Assembly: GCF_003704095.1 (NCBI RefSeq) | Contig: NW_020846320.1 | Span: 1-64,000 of the forward strand | DNA length: 64,000 nucleotides | DNA from: Pocillopora damicornis | Lineage: Eukaryota | Direction of reading: 5' to 3' | In this document: positions 6,001-39,000 of the stretch, piece after piece | How the letters are laid out: each line of letters begins with the position of its first letter | Numbering within the stretch: position 1 is the first letter of the stretch | Position numbers: made by a program

Positions 6001-9000
6001 CTGCTCTTGTTTGTCTCCTCTAATTCTAAATGGTTTCAATTTTTATCGCTTGTTTCGTTTATGGGTAATATCTGCTATGGATTAATTTTAAAACACAATC
6101 TCTTTAGGAATGCGTGATTCATTGTGAAGATGTTCGGCTTTTTGACGGCACCTTCACCAGCGTGTCTCAAATTAGTTTAAGTGCAAACAGAATTAAAGGT
6201 CTTACACTGAGTTGTTTCGGCGTGGCCACAATACACTATCGAGTATTTCCCAACATGGGAAGTCTTAAACTCTTTTTTCTTTCGAAACCCTTGACTTAAA
6301 AGGAATGGCCCAGTTTATGAATCTGTATAAAAAATTCAGCTTTAGAATTCGACATCATATTATTAGAGATAACCCCAGCCATCTCTAAAGTTTATATCTC
6401 ACGACCTTAACGTAAGAGATCAGTTAGAAAAAAAGATGATAAAAAAATTCTGCATTTTAAAAGATCGAAACGGATCTGGAGTTTGAAAAAGTTCGGGGCT
6501 ACTTTGTAACCACCTACTTCCAGTCTGGGTTCGAAAACACAGCCCGTCATCTTTGAACATTGAGATAAGCACATTGTGTTCTCTTTTGAGCTTAGTAATG
6601 ACTTTTGAGGATTGTCTCAACAGAAATGGTAAAACTGAAATTTCGCGACATCATGAACTCAAATGTATTTGAACGACTGTGAATATGTGAAAATCAAATA
6701 TTTGAAAGAGATATATATATATATATATCTCATTAAAAGAGTAATAAGTCCCCAGACATTTAATGTACGCTAAAGAGTTTCAATAATTTAATACCTGTTT
6801 ACAACTCTTAAGAAATATCGATAAAAACAGAAATAAGACCGCATAAATTAAAATGAAATAAATTATCAACGACCTACTTCGCATCTACCTCATGGCTTCA
6901 AAGAAACGTGCAATTTAAAAGTAGTAACTAACATATACATCTTGAAGAGCGAAATACGATGTGGAGAATGTTTATTAAAAATGCTACACCGTTATTTTTA
7001 AAAAAATTATGTACATTAATACGATGCAAGATTTTAGCGAAATAAAATATCCTTCATTTGACCTCATTTTGTACGCCTAAGTATGCTCTACAACGCTACA
7101 CACTGACGAGATGTAAAGATGGAACGATAGTTCCGCTACTATGCAAAAAAGAAAACAAACAGCACAAGGTAGCGTTAAGAATTATGTGGGGTGAGGATCC
7201 TAAGCAGTAAGGACATGCGTCTCCTTACGACATTTCTCCGTGAAGCTACCTACAGAAATTTGTCATTTGAAGAAAAAGTTCCTTCTTTTAATAGTTCTGT
7301 CGACAGACGTCTGTGCATGATGGCATGAGCTAAAACCCAATACACCGTAACATGCCGGAACACCGCGAAATTTAAAAAAAATAAAAGTAAAAAAAAGATT
7401 GATAAAAAGTAGTTTATACATACATTATATATATAAAAAGTCAATTTGTGTGTAGCTCGCGCTCTTCGTGCCTCAAGTCCACCATCGTGGTTTTCGCTAA
7501 CCAGTAACCCCGTTCCTAACATGGAAAATGGTGGGTTTACGTTCGTGTCGTTTGAAATTGCAATCCGCTGTCTCTAGTGGTAACCGAAAACCAGGGTGGC
7601 AGACTTAACTCAAAAAGTGCACGGGCTATACACAGATTGAGTTTTACTGTTTTTTATCATTTTTTCAAAATTGAAAAAAGTAAACTTTTTTTCAAATTTT
7701 ATGGTTATTTCATCTTTTTGAAATTCCGCGGAGTTCCCGCATGTTCCGGTTTTAGCACATATGGTGCATGGTTTAGGAGCAGTTATCAGCTATTTTTTGG
7801 ACTACGACAAAAGTGTTAACACAAAAAAAGCCTGTTCTGTGTATATCTGTATATCAGCCTATATACGCCTTGTTGATGCCTGTGCGAGTTTCCTTTTTCA
7901 GTCTCTTTTGGCTGTATTACAATACCCGCTTGACTTCTCCCAATGTTTAAAGCTCTTATCAAAACTATTTGTTTACTGTTATCAGACTAGTAGGTTTCAA
8001 CAATGACTTGTTCCTTAATAGCTTGTCTCATAGAGACTTAACCGTATATGATTCGTTTCTTGATGTCTTGCGCCTCAAAGACCTGTCCCTTGGAGACTCC
8101 TACCTTCATTCCTTGTCCTTTAACTTCTCCTTTGCTATGAACGCCTTTCTCCAGACCCTGGCTCTTTCATCATCTTTAGCAGCTGGCCCCCTTTTATGCC
8201 TGGATTATCAGTCTAAGTGCTCTTTTTCTATCTTCATAGGAACTGTAGTCACCACTTGGTTTTCAAACACAAATCTCTTGACTCTATCAAACAAAAAGAG
8301 AAAGATGAACAGAATAGCCAAGTACTGGATCCAAGCCATTTTGATGAGCTGCCAAAATCCTGGACGGTATCTTAAAAATAACGTTAAGGTGAACTCTGTT
8401 TGCAATTGAACAACTCCTGATGCGAAAATCTTCAAACACAATTCTAAGAAACAGTTGCAACACATCTCTTAAAACCTTGATAATGGTTGGAAAATATGCG
8501 AGGTGTAAATGTATCATTGAATATCATCCCATCCAAGGAAAGGAGATTGAAATACTCTCAGTCAGAGGGGTCTCAATAACTTTTTCCATAAGTGGCTGCC
8601 ACTGGTGTAATTGGCGGCCATGCCTTAAGGTGAAAATAACCAAGAGAGTCTCTTTGTAGGCTAAACAGATGCTGGTGAGACATCTTGCAGACTTACAGCT
8701 CATTGAAACCCCAGTTTGATTGTATCAAGCAATGAAAACTTAGATGTCAGCTCCAGTGGTGTACATGGGTTAACTTAAGAGCAAAACTTTACCTTTTCAA
8801 CAAAAGCTTGTGGCGGCCCTGAATAATATCCTAGTAATGATTGCTTGCAGTACATTAGCACAACCTTGATACACTTAAAATTTTTACTAAAAGATACATG
8901 ATTGTCTCCTCTGGGTAATAAACAGTTCCTTTAATAACAAATGGCTGCCCAGCTGCTCTACCAGTTGTCCACACAGGATGGAATGACACATATTCTGTGG

Positions 9001-36000: not shown

Positions 36001-39000
36001 ACCCTACAAATTTAACACCTAAAAAATTAAGTGTAAAATTGCAATGAAAAAAAGTAAAAATTTTAGGAAAAATTTAAGGAGCATATGCTGGGATTTTCAA
36101 AAAAGGCAGGTCTATCGCTGCCAGTAAAACCTCATGGCCTGTGAGCAAGCTCTCGTGTATGGGATTTGCCTCACGGCTACTTTCCGGGCAAAGCCGCCTA
36201 AAACACCATCGGAAGCCCGTTATGGAAAAGCAACTGGGACCCTTTTATGTTCTTAAAGGTCAAGCTCAACTCAAGCCAGGCTGCGTTTCTCTTGCGCGAG
36301 AATCGAGAGAAAGCAAAAGTTAAGAGGTGTGAGGATTATTTCACTTGGCGATATTTAAAGGCCCTCTGCATGGATGTAATATTTAACTTCAAGTGAAACT
36401 TTAACCTCGGTCAAGGGTGATGAAATAATGAGGCAACAACTTATTTATACGGAAGTTGAGATTTTTTCTGAGAATGGATTGCATCAGAAAAATGACAAAT
36501 CGTTTATGGACTACTTTAAAATAAATAAAATAATTTAGTTTTCAGAAAGGAATTGAAGAAGCAAATATATCAAATGTACAGTAATGTAGGCCTACACAAT
36601 CAATGGAAAAAAATAATTAGGTTATGAATGAAAAAGCGAAAGTAACTTCCTCTTACGTTTGGATCCAATGACTCTTCGTCTAATTCATCTTTCTTCTTGT
36701 TCTCAGCTGCTTGAGAGCTAGGCGCCTTTAAAACAAAGAAAGGTGGAATGGGTCGAATGTAACCACGTGTTTCCGTGACTAAATCGCTTGAATCCAAAAT
36801 ATAGTCGGAGCCTTACCTCCGCTTGTTTCGCCTCCTTCTCCTTAGCTTTCTTCTCTGCTTTGAGCCTTCTCTTTAGCTCGCTGTTATCAGAGATAATTAT
36901 TAAACATTCAGTAAAAGTTTGGAGGTCGAGTGATTTAAATTTATACGAGAAATATAACATACTTCTTGCTAATGTTTCCGTCGCCACCGGCATCCGCCAT
37001 GCTAGAGCACCTAACTGAACCCTCGTGTGTTCTGAATAGTGGACTCTGGTTGGTCCATAAGGGCTTGAGCCTCCAAAGCGCACGCGCAGTCCGTCCAAAA
37101 ATTACCCGCGAAAACATGCTAAAGATTCCGCGAAAATGATCAAGACAAATAAATTTTCTTTCATTCGGCTGACCTCCATAGCCACTTGATCGATTCCTTG
37201 CGCATTAAATGCTTGAAATTAAACTTCAGTATGGAAATTCAGGCCGAATAGTGGTCTCTTTCCTCGCAAAACCACCAGTGCCACACGTACTCGCATATTA
37301 CGATCCTCTGTCCTCCTTTGAACTCGATTTCTCCCGATATTCGTACCCAGCTCTCCTCTGGAATATTCAAAAAGGGACGGGAGAGTGGGGAACTTGGTTG
37401 CGCAAGGGTTCAGCGTGTGCCGTAAGAATAGCTCCATTATGTTTTGCTTTATTTGTCTATTTATCAATTGTTTCGTCTATATATTTTTGATGTTTTGAGC
37501 TGTGGGTGCTGGACAGAGAAATAGAGGAAATGCAAAATTTGTTTCCTAAACCCCTGCAGGTCTCTAGAATCCCAAGTCTTGAATCAATTCTTTTTTCAGT
37601 CAACTATGACCAGGGTCATCTCCAATAATCTTTGTATTACACCAGCTCCAGGGTGAAATTCCTGTGACAAATTATTCACAGAGACCAACAGCATCACACA
37701 GGCCACCCAATCTATGAAGACAACTAGGTATGAGTCAGCACCATACTCCCTGATTAAAAACCTCTCAGGCATTTCATAGGGAAGGTGGGGAGGAGGGTAT
37801 CTAACAAATCATGTCAAAAATGTTGATTTCCACAAGTCAGATATCGACACTGAAATGATCACTCAGTAACAGCTGGGAAAGAAAAAACCGAAAAAACAGT
37901 TGTTAATAATGAGCAGTCAATTTTGAATCAACAGGGAGGGTCAAGTCACCCCTAAAACAATTTTTTAGAAAGACAATTTTCCACCAGGCAGATTTTTCAG
38001 TTCTAAATTTTATTGTGCCACTTGGCATATGTAGCTAACTAACAGTAAATATAGTGTCTAGTGTTCAAGAAAATAGTCTCTTGAATTTGCATTTAGAGTA
38101 AACAATGTAATATTACCCAATTTCTATAAAAATTTAAGGATATAAATATATTTATTGTATAAATAAAAATTGATGGTGCACATAGAGATAACTTGCATTT
38201 TAAAACAATTTTCATTATCTTAAATGAGTTCTTTCCTGTTTTCCAAACTTATAAACTTGCACAAGTATGGCAATGTCTATACATATCTGAAGCAAACCAC
38301 AAATCCAAAACTGAACTGGTGCAACCTTTACAAGGAAATAACAAGTTTTGAATATATCTCCTGATAGCCACATTACAACCATCTTTACACTGCAAACAGA
38401 AAAAAATAAATGTCATGCTTCAGTTTTTCAATTTGCTGCTGGTTAAAAGAAGCTTTGTTTAACCGTTTATAGCCTAACATTAGCATGTATCTTCTCCATA
38501 TGGCTAACTATACATATCCCAAGGTACTGTCAAGGAGAATTTGTATAACAATAAAGAGTGTCTTTAGTTAGTGATCATTTCCTCTATTCTCGTGACCTCT
38601 ATGTGTGATTCAGGAGTGCTATTGTGAGGAGAAATTACATGTAGTCACTCCAAGGGGTCAAAGGATTAGAGCAGAGGATTCACCAAGCAACCCCTGTGGT
38701 ATTTCAGATGCAATAGTACAAGATCTCCAAATAAAAGGGTTCCCAATTCTTTACTGAAACACTTGGTACAACCAGCAAAGGGAAGGGAGGGGTAGAATAT
38801 GTTCAGATGACTGGATTAAAATTATGCATCGTGTGACTTATGTGACAGAAAAAAGTGAAGAACAAAGTTCCTGTATTGAAGAGTAAAACAAATAGCACAA
38901 GCTGGGATGGAAAAAGCTGCTCCTATGCGATGCAAAATGCATGAACTGAGGGATACAGAAAGAGAGAGCTGCAGTCTTATCATAAAATACCTTTTCACTA

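What the first reader, a model, noticed from the sequence alone, without database searches (positions are those of the whole stretch)
8208..37000. Ancient microsynteny: TMEM231-ADAT1-GABARAPL2-KARS mirrors the human 16q23.1 block
Seen: order TMEM231(-), ADAT1(+), GABARAPL2(-), [U4, OTUD6B], KARS(-). Recalled: the human order is TMEM231(-), GABARAPL2(+), ADAT1(-), KARS1(-). The two arrangements differ by one inversion of the convergent ADAT1/GABARAPL2 pair plus the U4-OTUD6B segment. If this is a cnidarian, four functionally unrelated genes have stayed adjacent since the cnidarian-bilaterian split. That includes two tRNA-acting enzymes and suggests a shared regulatory constraint.
[Added by the scan's program, not by the reader: the finding's places include an assembly gap (unread letters, written N; its length is only estimated) at 23246 to 23345, 28626 to 28676, 35540 to 35549. 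Whether the letters on both sides are continuous or in frame is not known: test that first.]
Basis: partly seen in the sequence, partly recalled or inferred. Interest (0 to 1): 0.7.

Follow-up and report, generated by a model that had tools for sequence, protein, structure and literature searches.

The report
Four-gene neighbourhood shared with vertebrates
Four unrelated everyday genes that lie side by side in birds and mammals also lie together, slightly rearranged, in this non-vertebrate animal sequence, which is a good but ordinary example of ancient gene-order conservation.

Summary
Exon-by-exon searches place TMEM231 (-, 8208-11464), ADAT1 (+, 11910-16813), a GABARAPL2-type ATG8 gene (-, 17439-19571), U4 snRNA (+, 21141-21279), an OTU deubiquitinase gene (+, 21441-27163) and lysyl-tRNA synthetase (-, 28133-37000) in the stated order and strands.

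Two of the three gaps are intronic, with adjoining KARS exons on each side. The third (23246-23345) lies inside the OTU gene and seems to hide one exon. It is also the only join linking KARS to the other three genes.

Published chicken coordinates give the order KARS-ADAT1-GABARAPL2-TMEM231. Cattle and human papers list the same genes together. Chance expectation for such a quadruple is about 2e-7 per genome, so inherited linkage is the best reading.

Three parts of the interpretation are not shown:
- The source was not identified. CpG o/e of 0.67 argues against a vertebrate, but "cnidarian" is untested.
- One-to-one orthology rests on best hits, not on trees.
- Nothing supports a shared regulatory constraint. 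The inversion swaps TMEM231's promoter partner, and ADAT1 and KARS are the two most distant members here.

Conserved microsynteny of unrelated genes is a known class, and ADAT1-KARS clustering was titled in 2001. I rate this a new member of a known kind, of modest interest.

The parts
8208..11464 (-). TMEM231 orthologue (ciliary transition-zone protein), seven coding exons. Exon ORFs: 11312-11497, 10994-11221, 10663-10890, 9963-10175, 9608-9697, 8858-9145, 8211-8468.
   Evidence: PF10149 profile segments 1-47, 45-107, 100-160, 145-200, 196-223 (weak, E 0.034), 218-258 and 248-300, in order on the minus strand. The first Met of the exon-1 ORF is at 11464. The stop is at 8208-8210.
11465..11909 (.). 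445-bp head-to-head interval between the TMEM231 and ADAT1 start codons, a candidate bidirectional promoter.
   Evidence: GC is 0.345-0.37, with no CpG-island-like rise. No RFX X-box-like match lies in the interval. Transcription starts are not known.
11910..16813 (+). ADAT1-type tRNA adenosine deaminase gene. Exon ORFs: 11742-12059 (Met at 11910), 12417-12704, 13625-13735 (H-A-E motif), 13859-14113, 14263-15171 (long insert, then SCSDK core). Probable exons: 15674-15805, 15913-16086, 16625-16810.
   Evidence: PF02137 hits at profile 16-36, 34-83 and 80-219. The PDB best hits are ADAR-family deaminase domains, at most 54 bits. No dsRBD hit appears in any exon ORF. The C-terminal exons are assigned from recalled likeness only, with no Pfam hit.
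16814..17438 (.). 625-bp tail-to-tail interval between the ADAT1 and GABARAPL2 stop codons.
   Evidence: Poly(A)-signal-like hexamers lie on the + strand at 16817, 17237 and 17354, and on the - strand at 16953 and 17307. The two 3' UTRs must abut or overlap, but this is not shown by transcripts.
17439..19571 (-). GABARAPL2-type ATG8 gene, five coding exons. Exon ORFs: 19518-19589 (Met at 19571), 19343-19501, 19232-19339, 18928-19065, 17442-17594.
   Evidence: PF02991 hits at profile 2-20, 19-44, 43-78 and 60-104. PDB scores: exon 2 gives GABARAPL2 28.8 bits against 19.3 for the next hit and 17.6 for GABARAP. Exon 4 gives 46.1 against Atg8 45.1, GABARAPL1 34 and GABARAP 32. Exon 5 gives 47.7 against fungal-type Atg8 48.3 and GABARAP 39-44.
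21141..21279 (+). U4 spliceosomal snRNA gene, 161 bp upstream of the OTU gene's start codon on the same strand.
   Evidence: RF00015, 127 bits against a gathering score of 46, model positions 1-138 of 138.
21441..27163 (+). OTU-family deubiquitinase gene (OTUD6-type by recall). Exon ORFs: 21366-21608 (Met at 21441), 21718-21987, 22816-22974, [gap], 23599-23721, 24317-24463, 24902-25231, 26021-26233, 27038-27160.
   Evidence: PF02338 hits at profile 27-55 and 50-88, each 18.9 bits and below the 23.3 cut-off. There is no PDB hit. The OTUD6 assignment of the N-terminal exons rests on recall only.
23246..23345 (.). Assembly gap inside the OTU gene. One coding exon appears to be missing here. This is the only join that links KARS to the other three genes.
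   Evidence: The exon before the gap ends CG|GTAAAA in phase 2. The next readable exon starts CAG|C in phase 2. No frame of 22923-23245 or 23346-23650 carries the expected segment. The gap was not filled.
28133..37000 (-). Lysyl-tRNA synthetase (KARS) gene, 16 coding exons. The Met is at 37000 and the last exon is 28136-28228.
   Evidence: The OB fold PF01336 and PF00152 segments 3-45, 43-86, 85-105, 106-138, 217-256 and 256-299 are colinear. Human LysRS is the best PDB hit for 4 of 5 exons searched. Identical positions are 35 of 44, 43 of 47, 41 of 59 and 31 of 57.
28626..28676 (.). Assembly gap in the last KARS intron.
   Evidence: Exon 28766-28909 maps to chain 5hgq_A residues 454-500. Exon 28136-28228 maps to residues 501-522 (E 0.017). 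The donor AAG|GTTTGT and the acceptor TAG|GAG are in phase.
35540..35549 (.). Assembly gap in a KARS intron, about 130 nt downstream of the donor site.
   Evidence: The exon before the gap maps to human chain residues 7-64. The exon after it maps to 61-121. The split glycine codon G|GT joins correctly.

Best explanation
This is an inherited linkage block. TMEM231, ADAT1, GABARAPL2 and KARS were already close neighbours in the last common ancestor of this non-vertebrate animal and the vertebrates, and they have stayed within about 30-50 kb in both lines.

Shown: the genes, their order and strands, the very short spacers, and the same four neighbours in chicken, cattle and human.

Inferred: why the block survived. 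The likeliest reason is that it is packed so tightly that almost any breakpoint would cut a promoter or a 3' end. Start codons lie 445 bp apart and stop codons 625 and 969 bp apart. This acts together with slow rearrangement in both lineages.

The block is not rigid. The convergent ADAT1/GABARAPL2 pair is inverted as a unit, with breakpoints in the two promoter-side spacers. U4 plus an OTU gene lie between GABARAPL2 and KARS in this lineage only. So the constraint, if any, is on closeness and on the convergent pair, not on fixed promoter partners or on a link between the two tRNA enzymes.
For: - Gene identities, order and strands are supported.
- Chicken chr11 annotated spans are KARS 20108842-20121014, ADAT1 20121004-20145653, GABARAPL2 20146831-20154681 and TMEM231 20154497-20159550 (passage of PMC6339939). 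That is the same four neighbours in 50.7 kb, with two overlapping spans.
- A cattle chr18 interval lists all four genes (passage of PMC12573082).
- A human chr16 text lists CHST5, TMEM231, GABARAPL2 and ADAT1 (passage of PMC4485866).
- Chance expectation is 2.4e-7 quadruples per random genome, and 0 of 2000 simulations produced one.
- The general class is established: 595 conserved non-paralogous pairs, at least 378 of them eumetazoan, with short spacers and head-to-head orientation enriched (sections 5 and 7 of PMC3514665).
- A non-vertebrate source is indicated by CpG o/e 0.67 and GC 37%, set against the strong CpG depletion of vertebrate genomes (established knowledge). The different internal order points the same way.
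Against: - Only two lineages were compared: this window and vertebrates. No other invertebrate could be examined, so the ancestral state and the depth of the linkage are not fixed.
- The species is unknown.
- The link of KARS to the other three genes crosses the scaffold gap at 23246-23345. The argument that both flanks belong to one OTU gene rests partly on recalled similarity of the N-terminal exons.
- Human strand orientations are recalled, not confirmed by any search.
- Orthology rests on best hits. For GABARAPL2 exons 4 and 5, fungal Atg8 scores within about 1 bit.
- Breakpoint intolerance is an inference. No transcript ends, expression data or comparative breakpoints were available.
Confidence: 0.6

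Rival explanations
1. One reading: the block is held together by shared cis-regulation. The genes would be co-expressed from common elements, including a functional coupling of the two tRNA enzymes.
For: - TMEM231 and ADAT1 are head-to-head with 445 bp between their start codons.
- Head-to-head orientation, short spacers and co-expression are enriched among conserved pairs (section 7 of PMC3514665).
- A 2001 paper title reports genomic clustering of ADAT1 with two tRNA synthetases. It was seen only as a reference and is not held.
Against: - The head-to-head partner of TMEM231 is ADAT1 here, whereas chicken places GABARAPL2 next to TMEM231. No specific promoter pair is therefore conserved.
- ADAT1 and KARS are the two outermost of the three genes right of TMEM231. 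Their start codons are 25.1 kb apart, and GABARAPL2, U4 and the OTU gene lie between them.
- ADAT1 modifies tRNA-Ala and KARS charges tRNA-Lys (established knowledge).
- TMEM231 is a cilium gene, yet no X-box-like site lies in its promoter interval. The window holds 21 matches against 13.3 +/- 4.2 expected, and 6 of 100 shuffles reach 21.
- No expression data were available.
Confidence: 0.2
2. Purely neutral survival: the block is one of the ancestral adjacencies that happened not to be broken in two slowly rearranging lineages, with no selection on arrangement.
For: - Retention of conserved pairs tracks overall rearrangement rate. Slow lineages keep 448-492 of 595 pairs, and fast ones keep 12-54 (section 5 of PMC3514665).
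- The block has in fact been rearranged internally and interrupted by U4 and the OTU gene.
Against: Three linkages surviving together is much less likely than one if breaks are independent. The spacers are far shorter than typical, and Irimia et al. associate that with constraint. No quantitative neutral model could be fitted here.
Confidence: 0.15
3. Scaffolding artefact: the sequence left and right of the 23246-23345 gap comes from different places, so KARS is not really next to the other three genes.
For: The gap has unknown true length. An exon is missing, and a transposon-like short repeat lies just before the gap (22952-23161).
Against: Both flanks carry exons on the same strand, in the order expected for one OTU gene, with matching intron phase 2. 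Pfam OTU segments follow colinearly after the gap. TMEM231-ADAT1-GABARAPL2 would stay linked in any case.
Confidence: 0.05

Closest known systems
The vertebrate TMEM231-GABARAPL2-ADAT1-KARS1 block (human 16q23.1, chicken chr11, cattle chr18)
   Same: The same four gene families are immediate neighbours and tightly packed. Chicken holds them in 50.7 kb with two overlapping annotated spans. Cattle and human papers list the same genes together.
   Different: Here ADAT1 and GABARAPL2 are swapped and, by the recalled human strands, inverted as a pair. A U4 gene and an OTU deubiquitinase gene lie between GABARAPL2 and KARS. The outer neighbours differ: a TRAF-like gene and a PQ-loop gene here, against CHST6 in chicken and CHST6 and TERF2IP listed in the cattle interval.
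ADAT1-KARS clustering in mammals (Maas, Kim, Rich 2001, Mamm Genome 12:387)
   Same: It links the tRNA deaminase gene with a tRNA synthetase gene.
   Different: Only the title was seen, in a reference list. The paper is not held. In this window the two genes are not adjacent.
Conserved ancestral microsyntenic pairs (CAMPs; Irimia et al. 2012, PMC3514665)
   Same: Non-paralogous genes kept close across distant animals, with short spacers and one head-to-head pair.
   Different: None of the four gene names occurs in the main text. Their pair lists are in supplements that were closed, so it is unknown whether these pairs are already listed. Their criterion of four or more lineages could not be tested here.
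HSPE1-HSPD1 type co-regulated head-to-head pairs
   Same: A spacer under 1 kb between divergent genes (for HSPE1-HSPD1; 445 bp here).
   Different: In HSPE1-HSPD1 the same partners and orientation are kept from humans to unicellular relatives. Here the partner at TMEM231's promoter differs between this animal and chicken.

Membership tests
TMEM231 (PF10149) | Full-length match to the TM231 family profile | tested here: met
   Seven colinear exon ORFs cover profile 1-300 of 301. Six are above the 23.2-bit cut-off (25.8-69.7 bits) and one is weak at 13.8 bits.
ADAT1 (tRNA-specific adenosine deaminase 1) | ADAR-type deaminase domain with zinc and catalytic motifs | tested here: met
   PF02137 profile 16-219 is matched in three exons (32.2, 41.6 and 118.3 bits). 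The H-A-E motif lies in ORF 13625-13735 and the SCSDK core aligns to ADAR chains. Profile 219-329 was not detected.
ADAT1 (tRNA-specific adenosine deaminase 1) | No double-stranded-RNA-binding domains, which separates it from ADARs | tested here: met
   No dsrm hit appears in any of 13 ORFs scanned. The start codon lies 445 bp from TMEM231's, which leaves no room for upstream dsRBD exons.
ADAT1 (tRNA-specific adenosine deaminase 1) | Groups with ADAT1 and not with ADAR or ADAD in a gene tree or by reciprocal best hit | not testable with these tools
   The PDB holds no ADAT1, so only ADAR-family chains were hit. The protein databases were closed. The Atlas gave only chance-level hits.
GABARAPL2 subfamily of ATG8 | ATG8 ubiquitin-like fold with a C-terminal glycine | tested here: met
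   PF02991 profile 2-104 is covered over four exons. The last exon ends with a glycine followed by one residue and the stop.
GABARAPL2 subfamily of ATG8 | Closer to GABARAPL2 than to GABARAP, GABARAPL1, LC3 or Atg8 | tested here: inconclusive
   Exon 2 is clear: 28.8 bits against 19.3 for the next hit. Exons 4 and 5 beat GABARAP and GABARAPL1 by 8-14 bits but tie with fungal Atg8 within about 1 bit. No tree was possible. A 2026 paper places the GABARAPL2 duplication at or before the metazoan ancestor (passage of PMC13020874).
Lysyl-tRNA synthetase, class II (KARS) | N-terminal OB anticodon-binding domain plus class II catalytic core, with lysine-specific enzymes as best match | tested here: met
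   PF01336 and PF00152 are matched colinearly. In 5 of 5 PDB searches the top hits are lysyl-tRNA synthetases. Aspartyl enzymes appear only at E 5e-4.
U4 snRNA (RF00015) | Covariance-model score above the gathering threshold over the full length | tested here: met
   127 bits against 46, model positions 1-138 of 138.
OTUD6-type OTU deubiquitinase | OTU domain with a catalytic Cys-His | tested here: inconclusive
   Two colinear OTU hits, each 18.9 bits, fall below the 23.3 cut-off. The exon that should carry most of the catalytic cysteine codon is not in the readable sequence. There is no PDB hit. The OTUD6 subtype is assigned from recall only.
Conserved ancestral microsyntenic block (CAMP-type) | Members are not paralogues | tested here: met
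   The four genes belong to four unrelated Pfam families.
Conserved ancestral microsyntenic block (CAMP-type) | Linkage kept in several major metazoan lineages (four or more of 11 in Irimia et al.) | not testable with these tools
   Only this window and vertebrates could be compared. No eukaryotic genome collection was open, and the source species is unknown.
Bidirectional-promoter gene pair | Divergent transcription starts less than 1 kb apart | tested here: inconclusive
   The start codons of TMEM231 and ADAT1 are divergent and 445 bp apart. Transcription start sites are unknown.

The most novel reading that the evidence does not exclude
The convergent ADAT1/GABARAPL2 pair is an indivisible unit whose 3' ends overlap and regulate each other. 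Together with TMEM231 and KARS it forms a selected, compact housekeeping domain that predates the cnidarian-bilaterian split. It can flip as a cassette between two promoter-bearing spacers but cannot be dispersed.
Probability: 0.12. Interest if true: 0.55.

Novelty: new member of a known kind. Interest (0 to 1): 0.3.

Why it matters
If the source is a cnidarian or another distant invertebrate, this is a clean four-gene example of deep microsynteny made only of housekeeping and ciliary genes, with no developmental regulator. It also carries an internal natural experiment. The cassette inversion swaps promoter partners while closeness is kept. That separates "must stay close" from "must keep the same shared promoter", a distinction that surveys of gene pairs do not make. 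It also tempers the long-standing idea that ADAT1 and KARS are clustered for a tRNA-related reason. Taken alone it adds one more case to several hundred known ones.

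Tried and rejected
I went on with stop-free ORF references.
Every search was exon by exon, so whole-protein scores, identities and trees are missing.
- Atlas look-ups gave only chance-level bacterial clusters. The queries were a repeat-derived ORF, tried in the hope of a taxon lead (best score 0.76), and the ADAT1 N-terminal exon (score 0.84 with 77 shared features).
- The PDB search with an OTU exon found nothing. 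Pfam found nothing in the OTU N-terminal exons or in the ADAT1 C-terminal exons.
- An RFX X-box scan for the ciliary gene's promoter was not above chance, and no site lies in 11465-11909. The site at 12573 is inside an ADAT1 coding exon.
- No GC rise appears at the TMEM231/ADAT1 spacer.
- Literature searches:
  - The four gene names gave 9 papers, all on vertebrates by title.
  - microsynten* plus the names gave 177 papers, of which 25 were listed. None of those pairs microsynteny with ADAT1, GABARAPL2 or TMEM231.
  - synten* plus ADAT1 gave 4 papers, none on invertebrate gene order.
  - synten*, TMEM231 and GABARAPL2 gave 45 papers, of which 30 were listed, mostly about "syntenin".
  - GABARAPL2, TMEM231 and bidirectional gave 0 papers.
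  - The KARS and TERF2IP orientation search gave nothing useful.
  - The 2001 ADAT1-KARS paper is not held.
- Convergent assembly of the cluster was rejected on the chance estimate.
- A vertebrate source was rejected on CpG o/e 0.67 and the different order.
- Unchecked because closed or absent: protein homology databases, metagenome and viral contig collections, any eukaryotic genome collection, and paper supplements. The supplements include the CAMP lists of PMC3514665, which may already contain these pairs.

Full report
**What is in the window.** The window is 64 kb with 37.3% GC, CpG observed/expected 0.67 and twelve N runs. Rfam finds one RNA gene, a full-length U4 snRNA at 21141-21279 on the + strand (127 bits). 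There are no tRNA genes. The protein genes are split by introns, so I listed stop-to-stop ORFs. I searched candidate exons one at a time.

**Gene identities.**

- **TMEM231 (-, 8208-11464).** Seven exon ORFs match the TM231 profile at 1-47, 45-107, 100-160, 145-200, 196-223, 218-258 and 248-300. Six are above the cut-off and one is weak. One further ORF tested had no hit.
- **ADAT1 (+, 11910-16813).**
  - Three of 13 ORFs hit the adenosine-deaminase (editase) domain at profile 16-36, 34-83 and 80-219.
  - The H-A-E motif and the SCSDK core are present.
  - No dsRNA-binding domain was found. There is also no room for one, because the start codon is 445 bp from TMEM231's.
  - The PDB holds only ADAR-type relatives, at most 54 bits.
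  - The last third of the domain was not detected by Pfam, and I assign those exons from recalled likeness only.
- **ATG8-family gene (-, 17439-19571).** Four of 5 ORFs hit PF02991 colinearly. GABARAPL2 is the clear best PDB match for exon 2, at 28.8 bits against 19.3 for the next hit. For exons 4 and 5 it beats GABARAP and GABARAPL1 by 8-14 bits but ties with fungal Atg8.
- **OTU gene (+, 21441-27163).** There are only two sub-threshold OTU hits, which are colinear, and no PDB hit. "OTUD6B" is my recollection, not a test.
- **KARS (-, 28133-37000).** The OB fold and class II core are matched colinearly. Lysyl-tRNA synthetase is first in all five PDB searches. The human enzyme is best in four of them, with 35/44, 43/47, 41/59 and 31/57 identical positions.

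**Flanks.** A TRAF-like gene lies at 1-5200 (-). A PQ-loop gene lies at 38218-40865 (-). A prenyltransferase-alpha-repeat gene with a leucine-rich tail lies at about 41.4-51.5 kb (+). A rhodopsin-type receptor lies at 55303-56331 (+). None of these was reported next to the block in the vertebrate papers I read.

**The gaps, tested first.**

- The 10-N gap (35540-35549) and the 51-N gap (28626-28676) lie in KARS introns.
- The exons on either side map to adjoining residues of one reference chain: 7-64 then 61-121, and 454-500 then 501-522 (the last at E 0.017). The splice junctions are in phase. No coding sequence is lost there.
- The 100-N gap (23246-23345) is different.
  - It lies in the OTU gene between an exon ending in phase 2 and an exon starting in phase 2, whose first base would complete the catalytic cysteine codon.
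  - The exon expected between them is not in any frame of the readable flanks.
  - The gap therefore probably hides an exon and is longer than written.
  - Same strand, right order and matching phase support the join.
  - This is nevertheless the one place where KARS's linkage to the other three genes depends on scaffolding, and part of the argument rests on recalled similarity.
- I did not fill any gap.

**Comparison with vertebrates.**

- A chicken paper prints coordinates that give KARS, ADAT1, GABARAPL2, TMEM231 and CHST6 in that order within 60 kb of chromosome 11. The KARS/ADAT1 and GABARAPL2/TMEM231 spans overlap (passage, PMC6339939).
- A cattle interval on chromosome 18 lists all four genes with TERF2IP and CHST6 (passage, PMC12573082).
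- A human paper speaks of "CHST5, TMEM231, GABARAPL2 and ADAT1" on chromosome 16 (passage, PMC4485866).
The human strands remain recalled.
- With those strands, inverting the convergent ADAT1/GABARAPL2 pair and removing U4 plus the OTU gene turns the window's arrangement into the vertebrate one.
- A random-order model gives 2.4e-7 such quadruples per genome. None occurred in 2000 simulated genomes of 20,000 genes.

**How it most likely works.**

- The block is extremely compact:
  - 445 bp between the divergent TMEM231 and ADAT1 start codons;
  - 625 bp between the convergent ADAT1 and GABARAPL2 stops, with poly(A)-like signals from both strands interleaved;
  - 969 bp between the OTU and KARS stops;
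  - U4 only 161 bp from the OTU start codon.
- Chicken is similarly tight. I infer that few breakpoints are harmless, and that this, together with slow rearrangement, kept the genes together.
- The published survey of conserved pairs finds short spacers and head-to-head orientation enriched, and retention tracking lineage rearrangement rate (PMC3514665, sections 5 and 7).
- Against a specific shared-regulation model:
  - The promoter partner of TMEM231 differs between this animal and chicken.
  - ADAT1 and KARS are far apart here.
  - The two enzymes act on different tRNAs (established knowledge).
  - No X-box-like site lies in the ciliary gene's promoter interval.
- What is kept in both arrangements is the convergent ADAT1/GABARAPL2 pair.

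**What stays open.**

- The source organism was not identified. No eukaryotic sequence collection was available, the protein databases were closed, and two Atlas look-ups gave nothing.
- CpG o/e of 0.67 and the altered order argue against a vertebrate. Cnidarian, or any other invertebrate, is possible.
- Reciprocal best hits, gene trees, gene order in other invertebrates and co-expression could not be done.
- The pair lists of PMC3514665 are in closed supplements and may already include these pairs. Its main text names none of the four genes.
- My searches of the held library found no paper discussing this block outside vertebrates. Searches showed only 25 of 177 and 30 of 45 papers.

**Verdict.** The depth ("cnidarian") and the cause ("shared regulatory constraint") are not shown. 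This is a new member of a known kind, with interest 0.3.

Noticed in passing
window 13072-13176, 16446-16544, 20751-20810, 22952-23161, 26436-26495, 29748-29959, 41722-41903, 43075-43256: A short interspersed element of about 210 bp with terminal inverted repeats beginning TTAACCC (MITE-like) occurs at least eight times, mostly in introns and spacers of the block. One copy ends 85 bp before the 23246 gap.
   Followed up: partly
window 55647-56897 versus 58034-59395: Near-identical inverted copies (155 nt at 97%, 90 nt at 96%, 125 nt at 89%) flank the gap-rich stretch after the receptor gene. This could be an inverted duplication of the receptor locus or an assembly palindrome.
   Followed up: no
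window 21141-21441: The U4 snRNA gene ends 161 bp upstream of the OTU gene's start codon on the same strand. A Pol II snRNA promoter and an mRNA promoter must therefore be packed into the 1.9 kb between the GABARAPL2 and OTU start codons.
   Followed up: no
window 14263-15171: The large ADAT1 exon carries a serine-rich insert. Its first 107 residues lie outside the Pfam match, and the match spans 177 residues for 140 profile positions.
   Followed up: no
window 1-5200 (-), 38218-40865 (-), 41446-51545 (+), 55303-56331 (+): Flanking genes are a TRAF-like gene (RING, TRAF zinc finger, MATH), a PQ-loop transporter-like gene, a prenyltransferase-alpha-repeat gene with a leucine-rich C-terminal exon (Rab geranylgeranyltransferase alpha by recall), and a single-exon rhodopsin-family receptor. 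None of these is named in the chicken, cattle or human passages read for the block.
   Followed up: partly
window 22923 and about 23650: If the exon missing at the gap were skipped, the two flanking OTU exons would still join in frame (phase 2 to phase 2), but without the catalytic cysteine segment.
   Followed up: partly
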